Part shown: positions 16,821 through 21,961 of the stretch, one piece after another
Numbering within the stretch: position 1 is the stretch's first letter
Layout: the number at the start of each line of letters is the position of its first letter
Virus record (IMG/VR): IMGVR_UViG_3300037067_003427
Coordinates: 5,505-69,504 of that record
Strand: one strand, 5' to 3'
DNA from: a virus
Lineage: Duplodnaviria > Caudoviricetes
DNA length: 64,000 bases
Made by a program: the position numbers and the translations under genes
Notes under the pieces: generated by a model
What the model saw: the letters and a program-made list of their open reading frames with translations, nothing else
Database searches by the model: none
Told to the model about the DNA's origin: nothing

Positions 16821-17527
16821 ACCTCCTTTGTTTTCTTAATAGCGTTCCTACTTATTATTTCCCTTTGTCCGTCCTCAAACTCAACAAGTGCGGAGTTTGC
16901 CCTACCCCTAACAATGACCTTGCATTTTCGGCCATACATCGAAAGGCGCTTTTCATTGTTTTTCCATTTATAAACATAAACCATATCTCTTTTGGCTTTT
17001 TTATCCATTATATCAGTAATTGGATCAGACCATCTAAGGACGATATATGCTGGAATAATGGGCGTTGTGTTGTAAAAACAATACCATTTGCCCGGAGTTA
17101 ATTTGACTTTATTAGAGATTAAATTATCCATCATAGTTCCCTCATTTCCGTTTCCAATGTTATCTTAAAGTTGTCCACATCTTCCATAAATTTCTGTCTT
17201 ACCGTATAAACGCTTACTCCATGTTTTCTGGCCAATCGATTAAAGAATACTTCTCTCGCCTGAAGTTCTGTATAGGCATAGCAATAAAGGATCAGTAATT
17301 CCCTTGAATAGTTAAATATCCCCTTCCACCGCTGTTTTATCTTAGAAATTTTCTTCTTCATGATATGCTTTCCAAAATGAACGGGAATATCTTTCGATTG
17401 TTTTTTTGTTGTCTACCAAAACATACACCTTGTCATCAGTGCAAGAGATAAGATATCCAAGCGTTATTCCCTTTTCAAGATGGTCCATACCCCTGCGCGT
17501 CATAATAACTCTTATTCGTCCGTACAT
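16817..17527 (-). other. Three short hypothetical ORFs (16817-17134, 17131-17361, 17342-17527)
   Basis: Overlapping start and stop codons in the same operon. Confidence 0.6.
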
Positions 17528-19176
17528 TTATCATCCTCCATTCTTCTCCATGACGATGTATTTGTAAATTTACATCCTTCAACCAACTTAAACTCTATTT
17601 GAAGCCTATTCGGATTCATTTTTGAATTACGCCAGTTCTTTGCCTTTACGATTTTTAATTTGTTTGGTGCAAGTGAAAGATATAAACGAGGTAGGTTTTT
17701 GGTCCTTTCACCGCCTTCACCCGTTTCCCTTCCTTTTGGCTTTTGAAGGGCAATGAAAGCTATCCCTTTTCCAAGCGCCTTCCCTATTTTTTTGATAAAT
17801 CCTGCCATAAGATAGAAGTTATCAAACAGTTCAAGGTAATCGATTATATTTATATCATCTGGGAAGATCACCTGATCAAAATCATCATACCGTTCGTAAA
17901 AATGGAAATTCGTATTTGTCGCAGCATCAGGCCAAAAGTAATCGGCACGATCCAAAAATTCCTGTTTTCCCATCTCTGTGCTGAAATAATGCACCTGAAA
18001 ACTATCTACATTCTTTTTTGCAAAATTCATCAGGAAGGCGCTTTTCCCAGAATCAGATTCTCCGGCAATAACATAAACACAACCCGGCATCGGTTTTATC
18101 AAAGACTCTATCCCAAGGGGAAATTCAACTGCAAGCTCTCCATGAAGGTCTGACCTATCAGAAAGATTAATAACTTTTAAGTTTTTGTTAATCGTTCTGT
18201 ATGTTCCTGTATTCCCTCCTGTTATTTTATCAATCAGTCTATCTTCACCCTCAGAAATACGCTTCAAAATTATTGAAACATTCTTCTTATCCATCCTTGT
18301 AGACACTTGGAGACAGTTGTATACGGTTTGTAGATTAAATGTTCCCTCTTGTAGACACACCCATTCCTTAATTTCTTGGGCAAAACTTTTTTCCCGTTTT
18401 TCATTTCGGTTCAGTGCAGAAATAATTTTTGCTTCAATTTCGTTTTCCGGAAAAGGAGGGTTACAATTTTTAGCAAGTATGTTAATAACTTGTCTTATCT
18501 CATCTTCTGAAGTTCGAGAAATGGCAAGTTGATTTGCAATATGGAAAAGGTCCTGATCTCTTCTTCCGACAGTGAACATTTTGTAGACACTTGAAGACGT
18601 TTGGAGACTACGTAGACGATTTAGATTTTGACCGTCTACAGACTCCTTATATATAAATGCATATATATTATCTAATATGACTTGCCCCGGCGCGGCCAGC
18701 GGCGTGTCAAAAATTGAATTTGTCCACTGGTAGGGATTACCATTTCCATTAACAGAAGGAGGGGCAACAATATAATTCCCTTCTGCCCGAACATCGATTG
18801 CAATTTCTTCATTTACAACACCTTTAAGATCTGTGTTGTCTGGGCATCTGAAATATAAATGTTCTCCATTTTGGGGAGTGGTGGCAGAAGGAACAACCAA
18901 GGAGTCTGAAAATATTTTTATTGCTACATCATCATCGAACTGGTCCTTGTATCGATCAAGGTCAACTACAAAGAGGTTTGATATCTTACCTGTTACTATT
19001 CCCACGTTTGCTTTAGGGGTATTCATCCACCAAGAAGTAATTGCGTTTCGATCAGCTTTGATAGTCTGGAAGGGTTCCCATTTAATGAGTGGTTTTTTGA
19101 GTCCCGGGATTAATGGAATGACCGAGAATCCCATATCGCAATATTGGAGGGCGGCTGCAAGAAACGGGTTTACCAT
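17512..19176 (-). CDS. Bifunctional primase-polymerase (Prim-Pol) fused to a RecA-fold helicase
   Basis: N-terminal GFSVIPL...KPLIKW...ANVGIVTG...VVDLD, GEHLYF, DVRAEGNYIVAPPS; C-terminal Walker A AGESDSGKS and IIDYL; start moved to MVNPFL. Confidence 0.85.
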   Translation of the reverse strand: MVNPFLAAALQYCDMGFSVIPLIPGLKKPLIKWEPFQTIKADRNAITSWWMNTPKANVGIVTGKISNLFVVDLDRYKDQFDDDVAIKIFSDSLVVPSATTPQNGEHLYFRCPDNTDLKGVVNEEIAIDVRAEGNYIVAPPSVNGNGNPYQWTNSIFDTPLAAPGQVILDNIYAFIYKESVDGQNLNRLRSLQTSSSVYKMFTVGRRDQDLFHIANQLAISRTSEDEIRQVINILAKNCNPPFPENEIEAKIISALNRNEKREKSFAQEIKEWVCLQEGTFNLQTVYNCLQVSTRMDKKNVSIILKRISEGEDRLIDKITGGNTGTYRTINKNLKVINLSDRSDLHGELAVEFPLGIESLIKPMPGCVYVIAGESDSGKSAFLMNFAKKNVDSFQVHYFSTEMGKQEFLDRADYFWPDAATNTNFHFYERYDDFDQVIFPDDINIIDYLELFDNFYLMAGFIKKIGKALGKGIAFIALQKPKGRETGEGGERTKNLPRLYLSLAPNKLKIVKAKNWRNSKMNPNRLQIEFKLVEGCKFTNTSSWRRMEDDKCTDE

Positions 19177-19202
19177 AATTTCCTTATTACTCCCAAAAAA
19201 GA

Positions 19203-19295
19203 ACACCCATTAAAGCGGAGAGCATACCAGGAGGGATATGCATTTAATGGGTGTCTTTAATGGGATTGTTCATTTTAGCTCTCCGTAAGCTAAAA
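19203..19295 (-). terminator. Terminator/attenuator-like hairpin set upstream of the prim-pol gene
   Basis: 12-bp stem ACACCCATTAAA/TTTAATGGGTGT followed by TCTTTTTT on the minus strand; second hairpin TTTTAGCT/AGCTAAAA at 19273-19295. Confidence 0.6.
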
Positions 19296-19298
19296 AAG

Positions 19299-19502
19299 TT
19301 AAGTGTTCTTTTCGATCCTTATGTATGGGATCTTTGCTACAGGAAGTCCGATAATGGGAGACATTTTCACAGCGGAATCAAAAAAAGGAACTCGTTTGGT
19401 ATAAATCCATGAGTTTATGGTTGTAACCTTAAAACCGGCCTTTTTTAATTCCTTGCGATATTTCTTTACCAAAAGTCGAAATTTTGTCTTATTGGTTTTC
19501 AA
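19299..19502 (-). CDS. Small Cro/XRE-like HTH protein
   Basis: 67 aa, basic; ELKKAGFKVTTINSWIYTKRVP resembles an HTH recognition helix. Confidence 0.45.
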   Translation of the reverse strand: MKTNKTKFRLLVKKYRKELKKAGFKVTTINSWIYTKRVPFFDSAVKMSPIIGLPVAKIPYIRIEKNT

Positions 19503-20862
19503 TTATCTCGTATTCCCTTATCCAATCAATCACAGCTTCAGAAAATCCATCAACATGGGTCCATGCGCCATAGCCGACACCGTTCTGAGCGGAGGCAACA
19601 TTAATCAAATAGTTATGCTTTCCAAGCAGACGCGCCTTTGAGGGCGAGTCGTCATAGCCAATTCCGCAATCCTGTTCATCGGTAATGACAATCACGCGGT
19701 CAACGTCACCCTCGGCCTTGTAGACAAAATCCATGACCTGCTTCAAGAAAATGCCTCCACCGCCGAGAGGACGACAAAGCTGATAAATGGCATCCGACAG
19801 AGCGAAGCCGTGGCGGGAAGGAACCAACTGAGTCTTGTGGACTCGCGTACTATCATTCCCCGCTGTCGCGTAAATAATCGGAACTTCGCACAACTCCCTA
19901 ACAAGGATAGCCAATGAACAGGCGACGTTTGCCCGATCAATTTCGGAGTATTTTGATACCGGGTTCCCATACATGCTCCCCGAAACATCAACAACCATTG
20001 CGGTCTTTCCGGGAAGTTTCGTAAATTGCGATAGGCAATTCAGCATGGGAGTCTCAATCGCCTCTTCTGCCCACAGGTTATGTTTGGCGGCTACGATGAA
20101 CCTAAAAGGCAAAACTCGGTCTGTTTTCATTCTCGCTAATGAATCTTGGATAAGAGACTCCGGCACCTTGGCCTCTTTCATGTTACGCAGGTTTCGCAAG
20201 AAAGCCAAGGCCCCCAATTTATTCTCAGAAATCAATCGTTCCCATGTTTCTTTTTTATCTTTTCCAGAAGACAATGCAACTTCCCATGTATCCGGAGGAG
20301 ATAGGGTTCCACAAACAAGATCATTCCAATCAGCAGATTGCAAAACGTCTTTTGGCTTTGCGTGACAAAGGAAAAGAACATCACGAAGTTTTATTGTTTC
20401 GTCACGATTATACTTTGCCAGTTGATAGGCGTTGAATTTTGTAAACGCTGAAGCAAGACCTTTTTTTACCTGAGCAGAAAGTGGTTGCTTGCCTTCTTTC
20501 CAGTATATAGCAAGAAATTCGGTAAGCTCATCTGGGCGCTGAATGACTTTTGCCAACACAGAGGCGGTATTTTTATATCCAATTCTTGCCAATTCACGTA
20601 CCAGTAAAAGTGGAACATGGCGAAGTTTGAACTTTTCTCGTGCTTCAATGGCCAATTCCGCTACTTTTTGTGAATCAACATCATTTACAAGAGAAGCAAT
20701 GCGAGAGGCAACCGTTTCTCCGTCTTCATAAAACTCTCTTTCCCAAAGCATACAAGAGCACACAGACCTTCGTAACTTTTGATAGGCGTTGATGTGTACC
20801 GCTTTTGCTCCTTCGTGGGTGTAAATAGGTTCTTTTTTAACTGTTTTATTCAACTTCGCCAT
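19489..20862 (-). CDS. rsr: Ro60/TROVE-domain RNA-binding protein with C-terminal VWA domain (Rsr ortholog)
   Basis: THEGAKA, LRRSVCSCMLWEREFYEDG, LRHVPLLL, IQRPDELTEFLA, AYQLAKYNR, PDTWEVALS, VVDVSGSM (MIDAS), IVITDEQ; true start MAKLNK follows RBS AAAGGAGG. Confidence 0.92.
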   Translation of the reverse strand: MAKLNKTVKKEPIYTHEGAKAVHINAYQKLRRSVCSCMLWEREFYEDGETVASRIASLVNDVDSQKVAELAIEAREKFKLRHVPLLLVRELARIGYKNTASVLAKVIQRPDELTEFLAIYWKEGKQPLSAQVKKGLASAFTKFNAYQLAKYNRDETIKLRDVLFLCHAKPKDVLQSADWNDLVCGTLSPPDTWEVALSSGKDKKETWERLISENKLGALAFLRNLRNMKEAKVPESLIQDSLARMKTDRVLPFRFIVAAKHNLWAEEAIETPMLNCLSQFTKLPGKTAMVVDVSGSMYGNPVSKYSEIDRANVACSLAILVRELCEVPIIYATAGNDSTRVHKTQLVPSRHGFALSDAIYQLCRPLGGGGIFLKQVMDFVYKAEGDVDRVIVITDEQDCGIGYDDSPSKARLLGKHNYLINVASAQNGVGYGAWTHVDGFSEAVIDWIREYEIIENQ

Positions 20863-20890
20863 ACTTTCTCCCTCCTTTAATGTGATTAAT

Positions 20891-20965
20891 TTGGGGGAAC
20901 AAGCGGTTTTCGGTAGTTGCCTTTCGGCCTTCCCATATGAAGTAACTGAAACCTTCGCCACCCAA
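20891..20965 (-). ncRNA. Y-RNA-like module 3 (about 75 nt)
   Basis: TTGGG-TGGCGAAG-GTTTCAG-TTACTTC...GCC-GAAA-GGC...CGAAAAC-CGCTTGTTC-C-CCCAA; the two ends pair. Confidence 0.7.
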
Positions 20966-20974
20966 AAGATTATA

Positions 20975-21039
20975 ACCAGGGAATAATCGATAACGGTCTT
21001 TTCATTTCAAGTGAAGTATCCGTAATCTTCGCCACTGGT
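20975..21039 (-). ncRNA. Y-RNA-like module 2 (about 65 nt)
   Basis: ACCAG-TGGCGAAG-ATTACGG-ATACTTC...CCGTTAT-CGATTATTC-C-CTGGT; the two ends pair. Confidence 0.7.
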
Positions 21040-21046
21040 ATATTTT

Positions 21047-21174
21047 TGGGGAAGTGGGTAGGAGTCGAACCTACAGCCTCGTCATTATCCTTGAAGTAAC
21101 TCTTATCTTCGCTACCTTTCGGAGAACAGGCGATAAGAGAAATTTTCGCGCTCTACCGCTGAGCTACCACTTCC
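21047..21174 (-). ncRNA. tRNA-shaped Y-like RNA (128 nt): tRNA shell with a 65-nt Ro-binding-type module in place of the anticodon arm
   Basis: Acceptor GGAAGTGG/CCACTTCC + encoded CCA; T8A9; D arm GCTC-AGCGGTA-GAGC; variable loop AGGCT; T arm GTAGG-TTCGACT-CCTAC; the insert carries the same AGCGAAG/TTACTTC motifs as modules 2 and 3. Confidence 0.85.
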
Positions 21175-21203
21175 ATATTTAATTCAAAGATCACTTGGCT
21201 GCG

Positions 21204-21233
21204 ATGATACGCCATGTATAAATTAAATGTCAA
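21204..21233 (-). promoter_or_regulatory. Sigma70-type promoter for the Y-RNA/Ro60 unit
   Basis: TTGACA (21233-21228), 18-nt spacer, TATCAT (21209-21204); predicts a leader of about 20-25 nt before the tRNA-like 5' end. Confidence 0.7.
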
Positions 21234-21287
21234 GCACTTTTTTATTTACCCTCATAAAAAATAATACACCCTGTATGCAGAATTATC

Positions 21288-21315
21288 TTGACATTGATGT
21301 TTTTTGTGCTATAAC
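21288..21315 (+). promoter_or_regulatory. Sigma70-type promoter for the rightward operon
   Basis: TTGACA, 16-nt spacer, TATAAC preceded by an extended -10 TG. Confidence 0.7.
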
Positions 21316-21346
21316 AGAAGCCAAGAGAAAATAAATTGAGGCAATT

Positions 21347-21961
21347 ATGGAAAGATGGAAAGACATACCGGGGTTTGATAAATACGAAATTTCCACGCTT
21401 GGAAGGGTTAGACATAAATTCCATAAACATATTCTTAAATATTCCTATCCATATAACGGGTATCCGCAAGTCAAACTTTCTTTAAATGGTGAACATGGAG
21501 ATAAAGTGGGCGGAATTACGAAATGTGTGCATAGTTTGGTATTTATCACATTTGTGCGCTCTCTTTTAAAAGGAGAAGAAATAAACCACAAAGATAATAA
21601 TCGTGCCAATCCAGCATTGAATAATCTTGAAGTTTTTGCAAACAAAAAAGAGCACGGGAAAGTACATAGAACATTACAATATAGAAATTGCCTTGAGTGT
21701 GGCAAAGAAATTAAACCTAGTAGCCTTTATTGTTCTAGGGAGTGTAGGTTAAAAAACATAAACGTAGAAAGACAGTGTAAATACTGTGGAGGTTCTTTCT
21801 ATATTAGCAAAAAGTTCATTGCGTGGAAAATGAATGATATCAGATATGCTAACGGAGCCGGAATATATTGCTCACGTAAGTGTTTTTATTCTGACCGTAA
21901 AGGGAATCCAATCCGAAGACCGTTTTATCCCTTTGCTATAAAGGAATCGCGAGGGAAATAA
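21347..21961 (+). CDS. NUMOD4-HNH homing endonuclease with C-terminal Cys motifs
   Basis: ERWKDIPGFDKYEISTLGRV (NUMOD4); VHSLV...INHKDNNRANPALNNLE (HNH); YCSREC and YCSRKC repeats. Confidence 0.85.
   Translation: MERWKDIPGFDKYEISTLGRVRHKFHKHILKYSYPYNGYPQVKLSLNGEHGDKVGGITKCVHSLVFITFVRSLLKGEEINHKDNNRANPALNNLEVFANKKEHGKVHRTLQYRNCLECGKEIKPSSLYCSRECRLKNINVERQCKYCGGSFYISKKFIAWKMNDIRYANGAGIYCSRKCFYSDRKGNPIRRPFYPFAIKESRGK

What the first reader, a model, noticed from the sequence alone, without database searches (positions are those of the whole stretch)
19489..21233. Phage-encoded Ro60 (TROVE) cassette with its own promoter and three tandem Y-RNA-like modules
Seen in sequence: a sigma70-type promoter (TTGACA-18-TATCAT) points into three unannotated RNA modules and then a complete TROVE-VWA gene. 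All three modules share RGCGAAG-N7-(T/A)TACTTC on one strand and N7'-CG..T.TTC on the other. The N7 helix differs but stays paired (ATAAGAG/CTCTTAT; ATTACGG/CCGTTAT; an imperfect GTTTCAG/CGAAAAC), which is visible covariation. Established: bacterial Ro60 (Rsr) binds Y RNAs that are encoded next to it, carry a GNCGAA(N)G-type 5' motif, tether Ro60 to PNPase and are linked to RNA damage and repair; a few phages carry Ro60. Inference: this is a self-contained phage RNP system with three different RNA partners, possibly for host RNA-decay takeover or for countering RNA-cleaving defences. No RtcB or other ligase partner is visible in the window.
Basis: partly seen in the sequence, partly recalled or inferred. 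Interest (0 to 1): 0.9.

Follow-up and report, generated by a model that had tools for sequence, protein, structure and literature searches.

The report
Phage Ro60 gene with three Y RNAs
An uncultured 69.5-kb phage carries a gene for the RNA-surveillance ring protein Ro60 preceded by three small partner RNAs; this kind of cassette is already known in phages, but the first RNA is an unusual version built like a complete tRNA with a free CCA end, which I did not find described in print.

Summary
A near-consensus promoter (21233-21204, minus strand) precedes three structured RNAs and a 457-aa Ro60 gene (19489-20862). The predicted fold matches every solved Ro60. All three RNAs share the docking module UGGCGAAG-N7-WUACUUC / N7'-CGNYURUUCC.

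A model of this module found 75 copies in 32 phage loci chosen by protein similarity alone. All were on the Ro60 strand, just upstream of the gene, and showed strong covariation.

The kind is known: Chen 2014 reported Y RNAs next to Ro60 in 22 phages, and Thermus phage phiLo has two upstream Yrl RNAs that bind its Ro60 and PNPase. "A few phages" understates it, since 97 phage records encode a relative.

The new part is module 1. It is a YrlA homologue in true tRNA order: an open, covarying 8-bp acceptor stem, often an encoded CCA, and the Ro60 hairpin in place of the anticodon loop. I found 31 such RNAs in 25 viral contigs, plus copies in crAss001-like phages, one of them cultured.

Rfam's YrlA model misses all three modules. 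The scan has noted tRNA-shaped Y RNAs on other phage DNA before.

The parts
21204..21233 (-). sigma-70-type promoter TTGACA-18-TATCAT. The predicted start is near 21197, leaving a leader of about 23 nt before module 1.
   Evidence: 11 of 12 matches. An equivalent 11/12 promoter with an extended -10 lies about 50 nt upstream of the tRNA-shaped RNA in L006.
21047..21174 (-). Module 1: tRNA-order Y RNA, 128 nt. Parts: 8-bp acceptor stem including G-1:C73 (21174-21167 with 21057-21050); D arm 21164-21150; N7' 21139-21133; strand B 21132-21123; closing CC-GAAA-GG loop 21122-21115; strand A UAGCGAAG 21114-21107; N7 21106-21100; UUACUUC 21099-21093; T arm 21074-21058; encoded CCA 21049-21047.
   Evidence: Rfam tRNA 44.8 bits with a 65-nt insert. 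No tRNA called by ARAGORN. Model R1 scores 130.9 bits. Covariation across 31 homologues: 93% paired against 45% slid. tRNA tertiary nucleotides are invariant.
20973..21040 (-). Module 2: minimal hairpin Y RNA. Terminal stem ACCAG/CUGGU, UGGCGAAG, N7 AUUACGG/CCGUUAU, UACUUC, and a short A-rich apical hairpin with loop CUUGAAA.
   Evidence: R2 72.9 bits. RNAfold agrees with the model. Covariation in A5.
20889..20966 (-). Module 3: Y RNA with a three-way junction. Terminal stem UUUGGG/CCCAAA, UGGCGAAG, an imperfect N7 helix, a CUUC/GAAG hairpin and a GCC-GAAA-GGC hairpin.
   Evidence: R2 45.3 bits. The class is conserved, with covariation in the second hairpin (GCC/GGC, GCUGC/GCAGC, GGGC/GCCC), in L001, L004-L007, L015 and L019.
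20871..20878 (-). Ribosome-binding site AAAGGAGG, 8 nt upstream of the ATG.
   Evidence: Read from the sequence. Similar GGAG-type sites precede the orthologues.
19489..20862 (-). Ro60 (TROVE + vWA) gene, 457 aa (P0001).
   Evidence: Pfam TROVE E=7e-18. PDB sequence hit to Thermus phage phiLo Ro60 9KOP, E=1.4e-21, over residues 14-453. AF2 model pLDDT 86, pTM 0.79. Foldseek: 9KOP TM 0.70, Xenopus Ro 2I91 TM 0.74, D. radiodurans Rsr 2NVO TM 0.63, human Ro60 9NEN. MIDAS D292/S294/S296 invariant in 27 homologues.

Best explanation
This is a phage Ro60/Y-RNA ribonucleoprotein cassette.

One transcript from the promoter at 21233-21204 carries three Y RNAs in front of the Ro60 open reading frame (inferred: no terminator lies between them). 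AU-rich spacers of 6-8 nt separate the RNAs.

Module 1 is shaped like a pre-tRNA. Host RNase P and 3'-end trimming down to the encoded CCA would therefore release it, and in doing so separate it from module 2 (inferred).

Each RNA docks on Ro60 through the same bulged helix. By analogy with metazoan Y RNAs, GG pairs with CC, C is bulged, GA pairs with UU, and AG faces a CGNYUR loop. Next come a covarying 7-bp helix and the invariant UACUUC element. Conservation and covariation of this module are shown here; binding is inferred from Xenopus Ro60, D. radiodurans Rsr and phage phiLo Ro60.

The distal parts differ among the three RNAs, so they probably tether Ro60 to different partners. Module 1 presents a tRNA acceptor/T/D body with a free 3' end. 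Module 2 presents a short hairpin. Module 3 presents a small three-way junction.

The most likely role is early reprogramming or blocking of host RNA decay and surveillance, for example through PNPase as shown in vitro for phiLo. This could also blunt RNA-based defences. The role is inferred.
For: - Protein identity.
- RNA modules and their linkage to TROVE genes.
- Covariation.
- The same three RNA classes in the same order in L001, L004, L006 and L007.
- tRNA features of module 1.
- No terminator between promoter and ORF.
- The RNAs keep their link to Ro60 even when placed downstream of it (L042, L063, crAss-like phages) or separated from it by an HNH gene (L007). This argues for trans-acting RNAs.
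- Literature: Chen 2014 (PMC4201824) found YrlA next to Ro60 in 254 bacterial species and 22 phages, with the GNCGAAN0-1G motif and a following YUAY. PMC12135203 shows phiLo Ro60 binds two upstream CGAA-motif hairpins (KD about 17 nM) and that the complex lowers PNPase activity by about 70-76%.
- PMC8375218 reports the crAss001 TROVE gene as an early gene.
- PMC11482910 reports that the Ro60-like gp130 of phage Bas63 counters the Ppl defence.
Against: - There are no expression, processing or binding data for this phage.
- Single-sequence folding is only mildly better than shuffles (z = -2.2, -1.9, -0.4), and the minimum-energy fold of module 1 misses the N7 helix.
- Rfam's YrlA model does not detect any module.
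- The host is unknown, so the partner enzymes are unknown.
- The phage encodes no RtcB, RNA ligase or CCA-adding enzyme, so a repair role has no support in the genome.
Confidence: 0.8

Rival explanations
1. The tRNA-shaped module 1, and perhaps the hairpin modules, act mainly as decoys or sponges for host factors that attack or sense tRNA. Candidates are anticodon or acceptor-end nucleases, CCA-modifying toxins and tRNA-sensing defence systems. Ro60 would stabilise or deliver the decoy. This differs from the best explanation in function, not in identity.
For: - Module 1 has an open 8-bp acceptor stem, and CCA is encoded in 12 of 31 tRNA-order RNAs against 2 of 66 YrlA-order RNAs.
- The tRNA tertiary nucleotides are invariant.
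- The tRNA-order form is enriched in viral DNA: 31 R1 hits of at least 59 bits in 25 contigs among 99 viral pattern loci, against 1 in 80 bacterial pattern loci.
- The Ro60-like gp130 of Bas63 counters a defence system (PMC11482910).
Against: - No anticodon loop is present, so anticodon nucleases have no target on module 1.
- No defence system is known to be blocked by a Y RNA.
Confidence: 0.2
2. The three structures are only a cis-acting leader of the Ro60 mRNA, for example for autoregulation by Ro60 binding to its own 5' UTR. They are not released as stable RNAs.
For: The modules lie between the promoter and the RBS with no terminator. Module 3 ends about 27 nt before the ATG.
Against: - In other phages the same modules lie downstream of the Ro60 gene (L042, L063, cr112_1, PhiCrAssBcn17), about 10 kb away (the L085 contig), or separated from it by an HNH gene (L007).
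- The tRNA-like ends and encoded CCA imply processing.
- The apparent motif at the start codon (ATGGCGAAG) occurs only in the closest relatives.
Confidence: 0.05
3. Module 1 is an ordinary tRNA gene interrupted by an intron or an insertion, and its likeness to modules 2 and 3 is incidental.
For: The Rfam tRNA model scores 44.8 bits, above its gathering score of 29. The acceptor, D and T arms are canonical.
Against: - Removing the 65-nt insert leaves a 2-bp anticodon stem and no anticodon loop. ARAGORN calls no tRNA.
- The insert carries the same conserved motifs and covarying N7 helix as modules 2 and 3, in 31 homologues.
- At 65 nt it is too short for a group I intron, and no intron family was found by Rfam.
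- The -1:73 pair is kept in 27 of 31 sequences, which is unlike ordinary tRNAs.
Confidence: 0.02

Closest known systems
YrlA, the tRNA-like Y RNA of Salmonella, M. smegmatis and mycobacteriophages (Chen et al. 2014, PMC4201824; structure in Wang et al. 2018, bioRxiv 10.1101/312249; Rfam RF02553)
   Same: - Encoded next to Ro60 on the same strand.
- Has a 5'-strand motif of the GNCGAAN0-1G type, followed after a short helix by YUAY (here UUAC).
- Has D and T arms with the tRNA tertiary nucleotides.
- The order of parts going outward from the docking helix is the same: strand A, T arm, acceptor, D arm, strand B.
   Different: - Module 1 is the circular permutation of YrlA. The RNA ends lie at an open acceptor stem (8 bp, with CCA encoded), and the Ro60-binding helix is closed by a loop.
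- Published YrlA has its ends in the Ro60 stem, a closed acceptor stem and 'no free CCA end'.
- RF02553 gives no match.
- Both strands of the docking helix are recognisable here, whereas only the 5' strand is in Salmonella and M. smegmatis YrlA.
- Modules 2 and 3 have no tRNA-like domain.
Thermus phage phiLo Ro60 with Yrl1 and Yrl2 (PMC12135203; PDB 9KOP, 9L5Y)
   Same: - A phage Ro60 with small hairpin Y-like RNAs carrying a CGAA motif directly upstream of the gene.
- It is the closest solved structure to P0001 by sequence (E=1.4e-21) and by fold (TM 0.70).
- Modules 2 and 3 resemble its stem-bulge-stem RNAs.
   Different: Only about 24% protein identity. phiLo has two RNAs, and no tRNA-shaped one is described. 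In phiLo, binding and PNPase attenuation are shown experimentally; nothing is tested here.
D. radiodurans Rsr-Yrn1-PNPase (RYPER) and metazoan Ro60-Y RNA particles
   Same: A ring-shaped Ro60. The Y RNA docking helix has a bulged C and an asymmetric loop: hY1 has UCCGAAG-GUAGUGA / UCACUAC-UGCACUUGAC, and here it is UGGCGAAG-N7 / N7'-CGNYURUUCC (comparison from my own knowledge of hY1). The distal module acts as a tether to an effector.
   Different: The effector of the phage RNAs is unknown. Yrn1 places its Ro60 stem at the acceptor position, not the anticodon position.
tRNA mimics with a free CCA end (tmRNA, plant-virus tRNA-like structures) and circularly permuted tRNA genes of algae and archaea
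   Same: An L-shaped tRNA body with an acceptor end available to tRNA enzymes. Permutation of tRNA gene order exists in nature.
   Different: No mRNA-like part and no anticodon mimic. The partner here is Ro60, not SmpB, EF-Tu or a replicase. Aminoacylation is untested.

Membership tests
Ro60 / Rsr (TROVE-vWA ring protein) | TROVE domain detectable by profile | tested here: met
   Pfam PF05731, E=7e-18, 65.5 bits against a cut-off of 23.
Ro60 / Rsr (TROVE-vWA ring protein) | Full-length fold of a HEAT-repeat ring plus a vWA domain, like solved Ro60 structures | tested here: met
   AF2 model pLDDT 86. The top 13 Foldseek hits are all Ro60 chains (phiLo, Xenopus, human, Deinococcus) with TM 0.63-0.74 over the whole length.
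Ro60 / Rsr (TROVE-vWA ring protein) | MIDAS motif DxSxS in the vWA domain | tested here: met
   D292, S294 and S296 are invariant in 27 homologues. The sequence VVDVSGSM is seen.
Ro60 / Rsr (TROVE-vWA ring protein) | Binds Y RNA and misfolded RNA | not testable with these tools
   Needs EMSA or co-immunoprecipitation.
Y RNA (Ro60 partner RNA) | Encoded next to the Ro60 gene, on the same strand | tested here: met
   All 75 R2 hits in 32 loci lie on the TROVE strand, just upstream of the gene. Of the 42 best R1 hits, 33 have a TROVE gene in the same fetched locus, always on the same strand.
Y RNA (Ro60 partner RNA) | Conserved 5'-strand motif GNCGAAN0-1G / CGAA in a bulged helix | tested here: met
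   The window has AGCGAAG, GGCGAAG and GGCGAAG. The wider phage consensus is GGYGNAG. Helix pairs covary: 95.8% paired against about 46% slid.
Y RNA (Ro60 partner RNA) | Stable small RNA bound by Ro60 in vivo | not testable with these tools
YrlA (Rfam RF02553) | Scores at or above the family's gathering score (69 bits) | tested here: not met
   No match at E<=10 anywhere in the phage genome. None in the local cmscan either.
YrlA (Rfam RF02553) | tRNA-like D and T arms joined to the Ro60-binding stem through the anticodon-stem position | tested here: met
   Met for module 1 only. Modules 2 and 3 lack it.
YrlA (Rfam RF02553) | Topology: RNA ends in the Ro60 stem, acceptor stem closed by a loop, no free CCA | tested here: not met
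   Module 1 has the reverse topology: an open 8-bp acceptor stem with CCA and a closed Ro60 hairpin. YrlA-order RNAs do occur in related phages (66 counted).
tRNA | Cloverleaf with a 7-nt anticodon loop | tested here: not met
   The Rfam tRNA score of 44.8 bits comes from the acceptor, D and T arms. A 65-nt insert replaces the anticodon arm, and ARAGORN finds no tRNA.

The most novel reading that the evidence does not exclude
The tRNA-order Y RNA is a distinct, mainly viral class whose free acceptor end is functional. That end has 8 bp, like tRNA-His, with G-1:C73 in the window and in 14 of 31 members, followed by CCA. It could be aminoacylated, or be recognised by EF-Tu, a synthetase, or a tRNA-end-sensing defence or toxin. 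That would bring the Ro60 ring to the translation or tRNA-surveillance machinery.

It would also be the missing evolutionary link for YrlA. Two tandem tRNA-order units, as in L004 (2359-2487 and 2493-2624), would give the published YrlA order once the outer ends are trimmed. This fits YrlA-order RNAs that still carry ACCA after a 7-bp acceptor strand (CcrColossus, L015).
Probability: 0.15. Interest if true: 0.85.

Novelty: new variant of a known kind. Interest (0 to 1): 0.62.

Why it matters
Ro60/Y-RNA particles are conserved from bacteria to humans, yet the partner of the tRNA-like YrlA domain and the role of Ro60 in phages are still open questions.

This cassette shows a compact, apparently complete set: one protein and three RNA classes, conserved across related phages. 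It includes a Y RNA with the ends of a real tRNA.

That form bears directly on how YrlA arose from tRNA. It also makes testable whether a free CCA acceptor end matters for Ro60 function.

The same RNA is present, unannotated, next to the early-expressed TROVE gene of crAss001-like phages. These grow on Bacteroides intestinalis, so the question can be addressed in a culturable system.

A practical consequence is that such RNAs are missed by Rfam's YrlA model and can be mis-annotated as tRNAs. In CcrColossus, part of one is annotated as a tRNA-Gln.

Tried and rejected
- **Rfam families.** A Rfam search with permissive thresholds gave only tRNA for module 1 and a meaningless lncRNA hit. RF02553 on the whole genome gave nothing.
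- **ARAGORN.** No tRNA or tmRNA in the window.
- **Megablast.** A 12-kb query against 50,697 phage records found no near relative.
- **Autoregulation through the start codon.** ATGGCGAAG resembles the motif, but it occurs only in the window, L001, L004 and L006 (GCGAAA in L005 and L008). More distant orthologues start differently. I reject it as a conserved feature.
- **Anticodon-loop mimicry in module-2-type RNAs.** This was a lead from earlier scan notes. The window loop CUUGAAA fits U33/R37. However, RNAfold gives no consistent hairpin for the apical segments of 21 relatives, and my own loop calls were ad hoc. Inconclusive.
- **Single-sequence folding.** z-scores are modest, and the minimum-energy fold of module 1 misses the N7 helix. 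I relied on covariation instead.
- **Repair partners.** No RtcB, Rnl2-type RNA ligase or CCA-adding enzyme in the genome.
- **tRNA-order RNAs without Ro60.** In six loci no TROVE gene was found within the fetched stretch; I searched the whole contigs of five. Two of the five have the gene elsewhere on the contig. The other three are fragments, 10-46% complete. So there is no evidence for Ro60-independent copies.
- **A dedicated promoter in relatives.** Found in L006, not in L001 or L004.
Full report
**What is there**

The window is part of a 69,504-bp IMG/VR virus record that CheckV rates 100% complete. PHROG matches support a tailed phage: primase/helicase, HNH endonuclease, tail protein and glycosyltransferase.

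On the minus strand, the promoter TTGACA-18-TATCAT (21233..21204, 11 of 12 matches) is followed by three structured RNAs. After them come the RBS AAAGGAGG and a 457-aa ORF at 20862-19489. No terminator-like site separates the promoter, the RNAs and the ORF. The next gene downstream on that strand is a primase-helicase (17512-19206). The promoter therefore probably heads the whole leftward early operon.

**The protein is Ro60**

- Pfam TROVE scores E=7e-18.
- The only PDB sequence relatives are the two entries for Thermus phage phiLo Ro60, at E=1.4e-21 over residues 14-453.
- An AlphaFold2 model built on 27 homologues has pLDDT 86 and pTM 0.79.
- Its 13 best Foldseek matches are all Ro60 chains: phiLo 9KOP TM 0.70, Xenopus 2I91 TM 0.74, human 9NEN, and Deinococcus Rsr 2NVO TM 0.63. 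Isolated vWA domains follow.
- The MIDAS residues D292, S294 and S296 are invariant.

**The RNAs**

All three carry strand A, (U/A)(G/A)GCGAAG-N7-(U/A)UACUUC, and strand B, N7'-CG(C/A)(C/U)U(G/A)UUC(C/U).

By analogy with metazoan Y RNAs I infer the following pairing (the hY1 comparison rests on my own knowledge). GG pairs with CC, C is bulged, GA pairs with UU, and AG faces a 5-6-nt loop. The last G closes the N7 helix on the C of strand B.

- Module 2 (21040-20973) is a simple hairpin with its ends at a 5-bp terminal stem.
- Module 3 (20966-20889) has the same frame, with a CUUC/GAAG hairpin and a GCC-GAAA-GGC hairpin on top.
- Module 1 (21174-21047) is different. It hits the Rfam tRNA model at 44.8 bits with a 65-nt insert in the anticodon arm, and ARAGORN calls no tRNA. 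In the insert, strand B comes first. A CC-GAAA-GG loop closes the end that is open in modules 2 and 3, and strand A follows.
- The RNA ends of module 1 are therefore those of a tRNA: acceptor stem GAAGUGG/CCACUUC extended by a G-1:C73 pair, followed by an encoded CCA.

**Comparative test of the docking module**

A protein-only search of IMG/VR gave 32 loci encoding relatives at 44-80% identity. The relaxed motif GGYGNAG-N7-NUACUUC occurs 1-5 times upstream of the gene, on the same strand, in 29 of them.

I aligned 21 hairpin modules with MAFFT, without using structure (A5).
- 95.8% of cells form standard pairs, against 42-50% when the 3' partner is slid.
- 95 cells have changes on both sides, against 27 in shuffles.
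- 0 of 500 shuffles reach the covariation score.

The model built from this alignment (R2) found 75 hits in 281 kb searched on both strands. Every hit was on the TROVE strand, and nearly all were within about 800 nt upstream of the gene, in all 32 loci. In the window's own genome it finds only modules 2 and 3.

Cultured phages show the same pattern. Xanthomonas phage MET23-P3 has five hits upstream of its unannotated Ro60 gene. CcrColossus has an array of them, and Microcystis phage Mvi-JY20 has one downstream.

**Three RNA classes are conserved**

In the closest relatives (L001, L004, L006, L007) the order is the same as in the window: tRNA-shaped RNA (two copies in L004), hairpin RNA, junction RNA, RBS, Ro60. 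In L007 an HNH gene is inserted before Ro60. The junction class shows compensatory changes in its second hairpin.

**The tRNA-order Y RNA is a real class**

A pattern specific for strand B-loop-strand A-T loop matched 99 viral stretches. Model R1, built from ten examples, scores 31 RNAs at 59-131 bits in 25 viral contigs.

On their alignment (fitted to the model, so it leans towards the structure):
- 93% of cells pair, against 43-46% when slid.
- 243 cells have double changes, against 71 in shuffles.
- All six helices contain pairs with changes on both sides.

Further features:
- The -1:73 pair is kept in 27 of 31 sequences (GC 14, UA 8, AU 3, UG 2), so the acceptor stem is 8 bp.
- U8, A14, G18, A21, G53, T54, T55, C56, A58 and C61 are invariant.
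- CCA follows directly in 12 of 31 sequences.
- By an independent regex count, NCCA follows the acceptor strand in 10 of 31 tRNA-order RNAs and only 2 of 66 YrlA-order RNAs.
- Where the fetched locus contains a TROVE gene, the gene is always on the same strand. Usually it lies 27-670 nt downstream of the RNA; in L042 and L063 it is upstream of it.
- Of the five contigs re-searched because the fetched locus lacked a TROVE gene, two have it elsewhere on the contig and three are fragments 10-46% complete.
- The same pattern in bacterial and archaeal genomes matched at least 120 stretches. Only 1 of the 80 fetched gave an R1 hit at this level, a 7.7-kb Lachnospiraceae MAG contig.
- A tRNA-order RNA also lies in the unannotated gap downstream of the TROVE gene of the crAss-like phage cr112_1 (71 bits) and of the cultured Bacteroides phage PhiCrAssBcn17 (76 bits).

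**Relation to what is known**

Chen et al. 2014 (PMC4201824) described YrlA RNAs next to Ro60 in 254 bacterial species and 22 phages. They reported the motif GNCGAAN0-1G, a following YUAY, and T and D arms separated by a closed acceptor stem-loop.

Wang et al. [quoted passage not shown] They speculate on an origin from dimeric pre-tRNAs. Only M. smegmatis YrlA is opened by RNase P and receives CCA.

phiLo Ro60 binds two upstream CGAA hairpins, and the complex attenuates PNPase.

So the cassette as such is a known kind. Module 1 is YrlA with the permutation undone. I found no description of this form in the papers searched; the 2020 Annual Review was not available.

Rfam RF02553 finds nothing in this genome.

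Earlier notes of this scan report tRNA-shaped Y RNAs on other phage DNA and reach the same view. My census above was made independently of them.

**Evolutionary inference**

L004 carries two tRNA-order units 5 nt apart. Reading from strand A of the first to strand B of the second gives exactly the YrlA order. CcrColossus and L015 have YrlA-order RNAs whose closed acceptor stem is 7 bp followed by ACCA. In CcrColossus part of such an RNA is annotated as tRNA-Gln. This fits permutation by tandem duplication and trimming. The direction of the change is not established.

**How it most likely works**

Shown here:
- Identity of the protein.
- Conservation, covariation and gene linkage of the RNAs.
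- tRNA architecture of module 1.

Inferred:
- Co-transcription of the RNAs with the Ro60 mRNA.
- Release of the RNAs by RNase P, 3' trimming and cuts in the AU-rich spacers.
- Docking of each RNA on Ro60.
- Tethering to different host partners.

The early expression of the crAss001 TROVE gene, the PNPase data for phiLo and the anti-Ppl phenotype of Bas63 gp130 point to an early host-takeover or counter-defence role. None of this has been tested for this phage.

No RNA repair enzymes are encoded in the genome.

**Limits**

- The host is unknown.
- E-values from my models are rough, because calibration was shortened.
- Alignment A4 is fitted to the model.
- The set of loci L034-L132 was selected by a pattern that favours the tRNA-order form, so the 31:66 ratio is not a frequency.

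Noticed in passing
window 21347-21961 (+); L007 about 2519-2990; L134 3918-4430: HNH endonuclease genes repeatedly sit beside Ro60/Y-RNA cassettes. In the window one lies divergently across the promoter region. In L007 one lies between the RNAs and Ro60. In crAss-like cr112_1 one lies just after Ro60. They may be homing endonucleases that move the cassette.
   Followed up: partly
L135 (Caulobacter phage CcrColossus) 1240-2460, annotated tRNA-Gln at 1673-1740: The annotated tRNA-Gln is the T arm plus acceptor strand of a YrlA-order Y RNA. Its acceptor stem is 7 bp followed by ACCA and a spacer hairpin. At least six Y-type RNAs are arrayed upstream of the TROVE gene.
   Followed up: partly
window 21005-21017 (module 2 apical loop); alignment A5 columns 25-47: Module 2 has a hairpin with about 5 bp and the 7-nt loop CUUGAAA (U at position 2, A at position 6), like an anticodon arm. 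Several relatives have UUC-N7-GAA with the same U/R pattern. The loop calls are ad hoc and RNAfold does not support a consistent hairpin.
   Followed up: partly
window 21288-21315 (+): A second promoter-like site (TTGACA-16-TATAAC) faces right towards the HNH gene and the rightward operon. The region 21200-21320 therefore looks like a divergent early promoter region. The scan tool did not list this site because its last base is C.
   Followed up: no
L014 2130-2202: A 73-nt stretch upstream of a phage Ro60 gene scores 65 bits on the Rfam tmRNA model (gathering score 47) although it is only tRNA-sized.
   Followed up: no
L016 4476-4584: A 109-nt tRNA hit (38.7 bits) with an extra long arm lies just downstream of a phage Ro60 gene. 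It has no Y-type motif.
   Followed up: no
L020, L021, L029, L136: In several phages the Ro60 gene is embedded in a large array of ordinary tRNA genes. L029 has 16 tRNA hits in 7.3 kb.
   Followed up: no
window 19200-19258: A long inverted repeat (about 15 bp arms, about 27-nt loop) lies between the small ORF after Ro60 and the primase-helicase start. It has no T run, so it is not a typical terminator.
   Followed up: no
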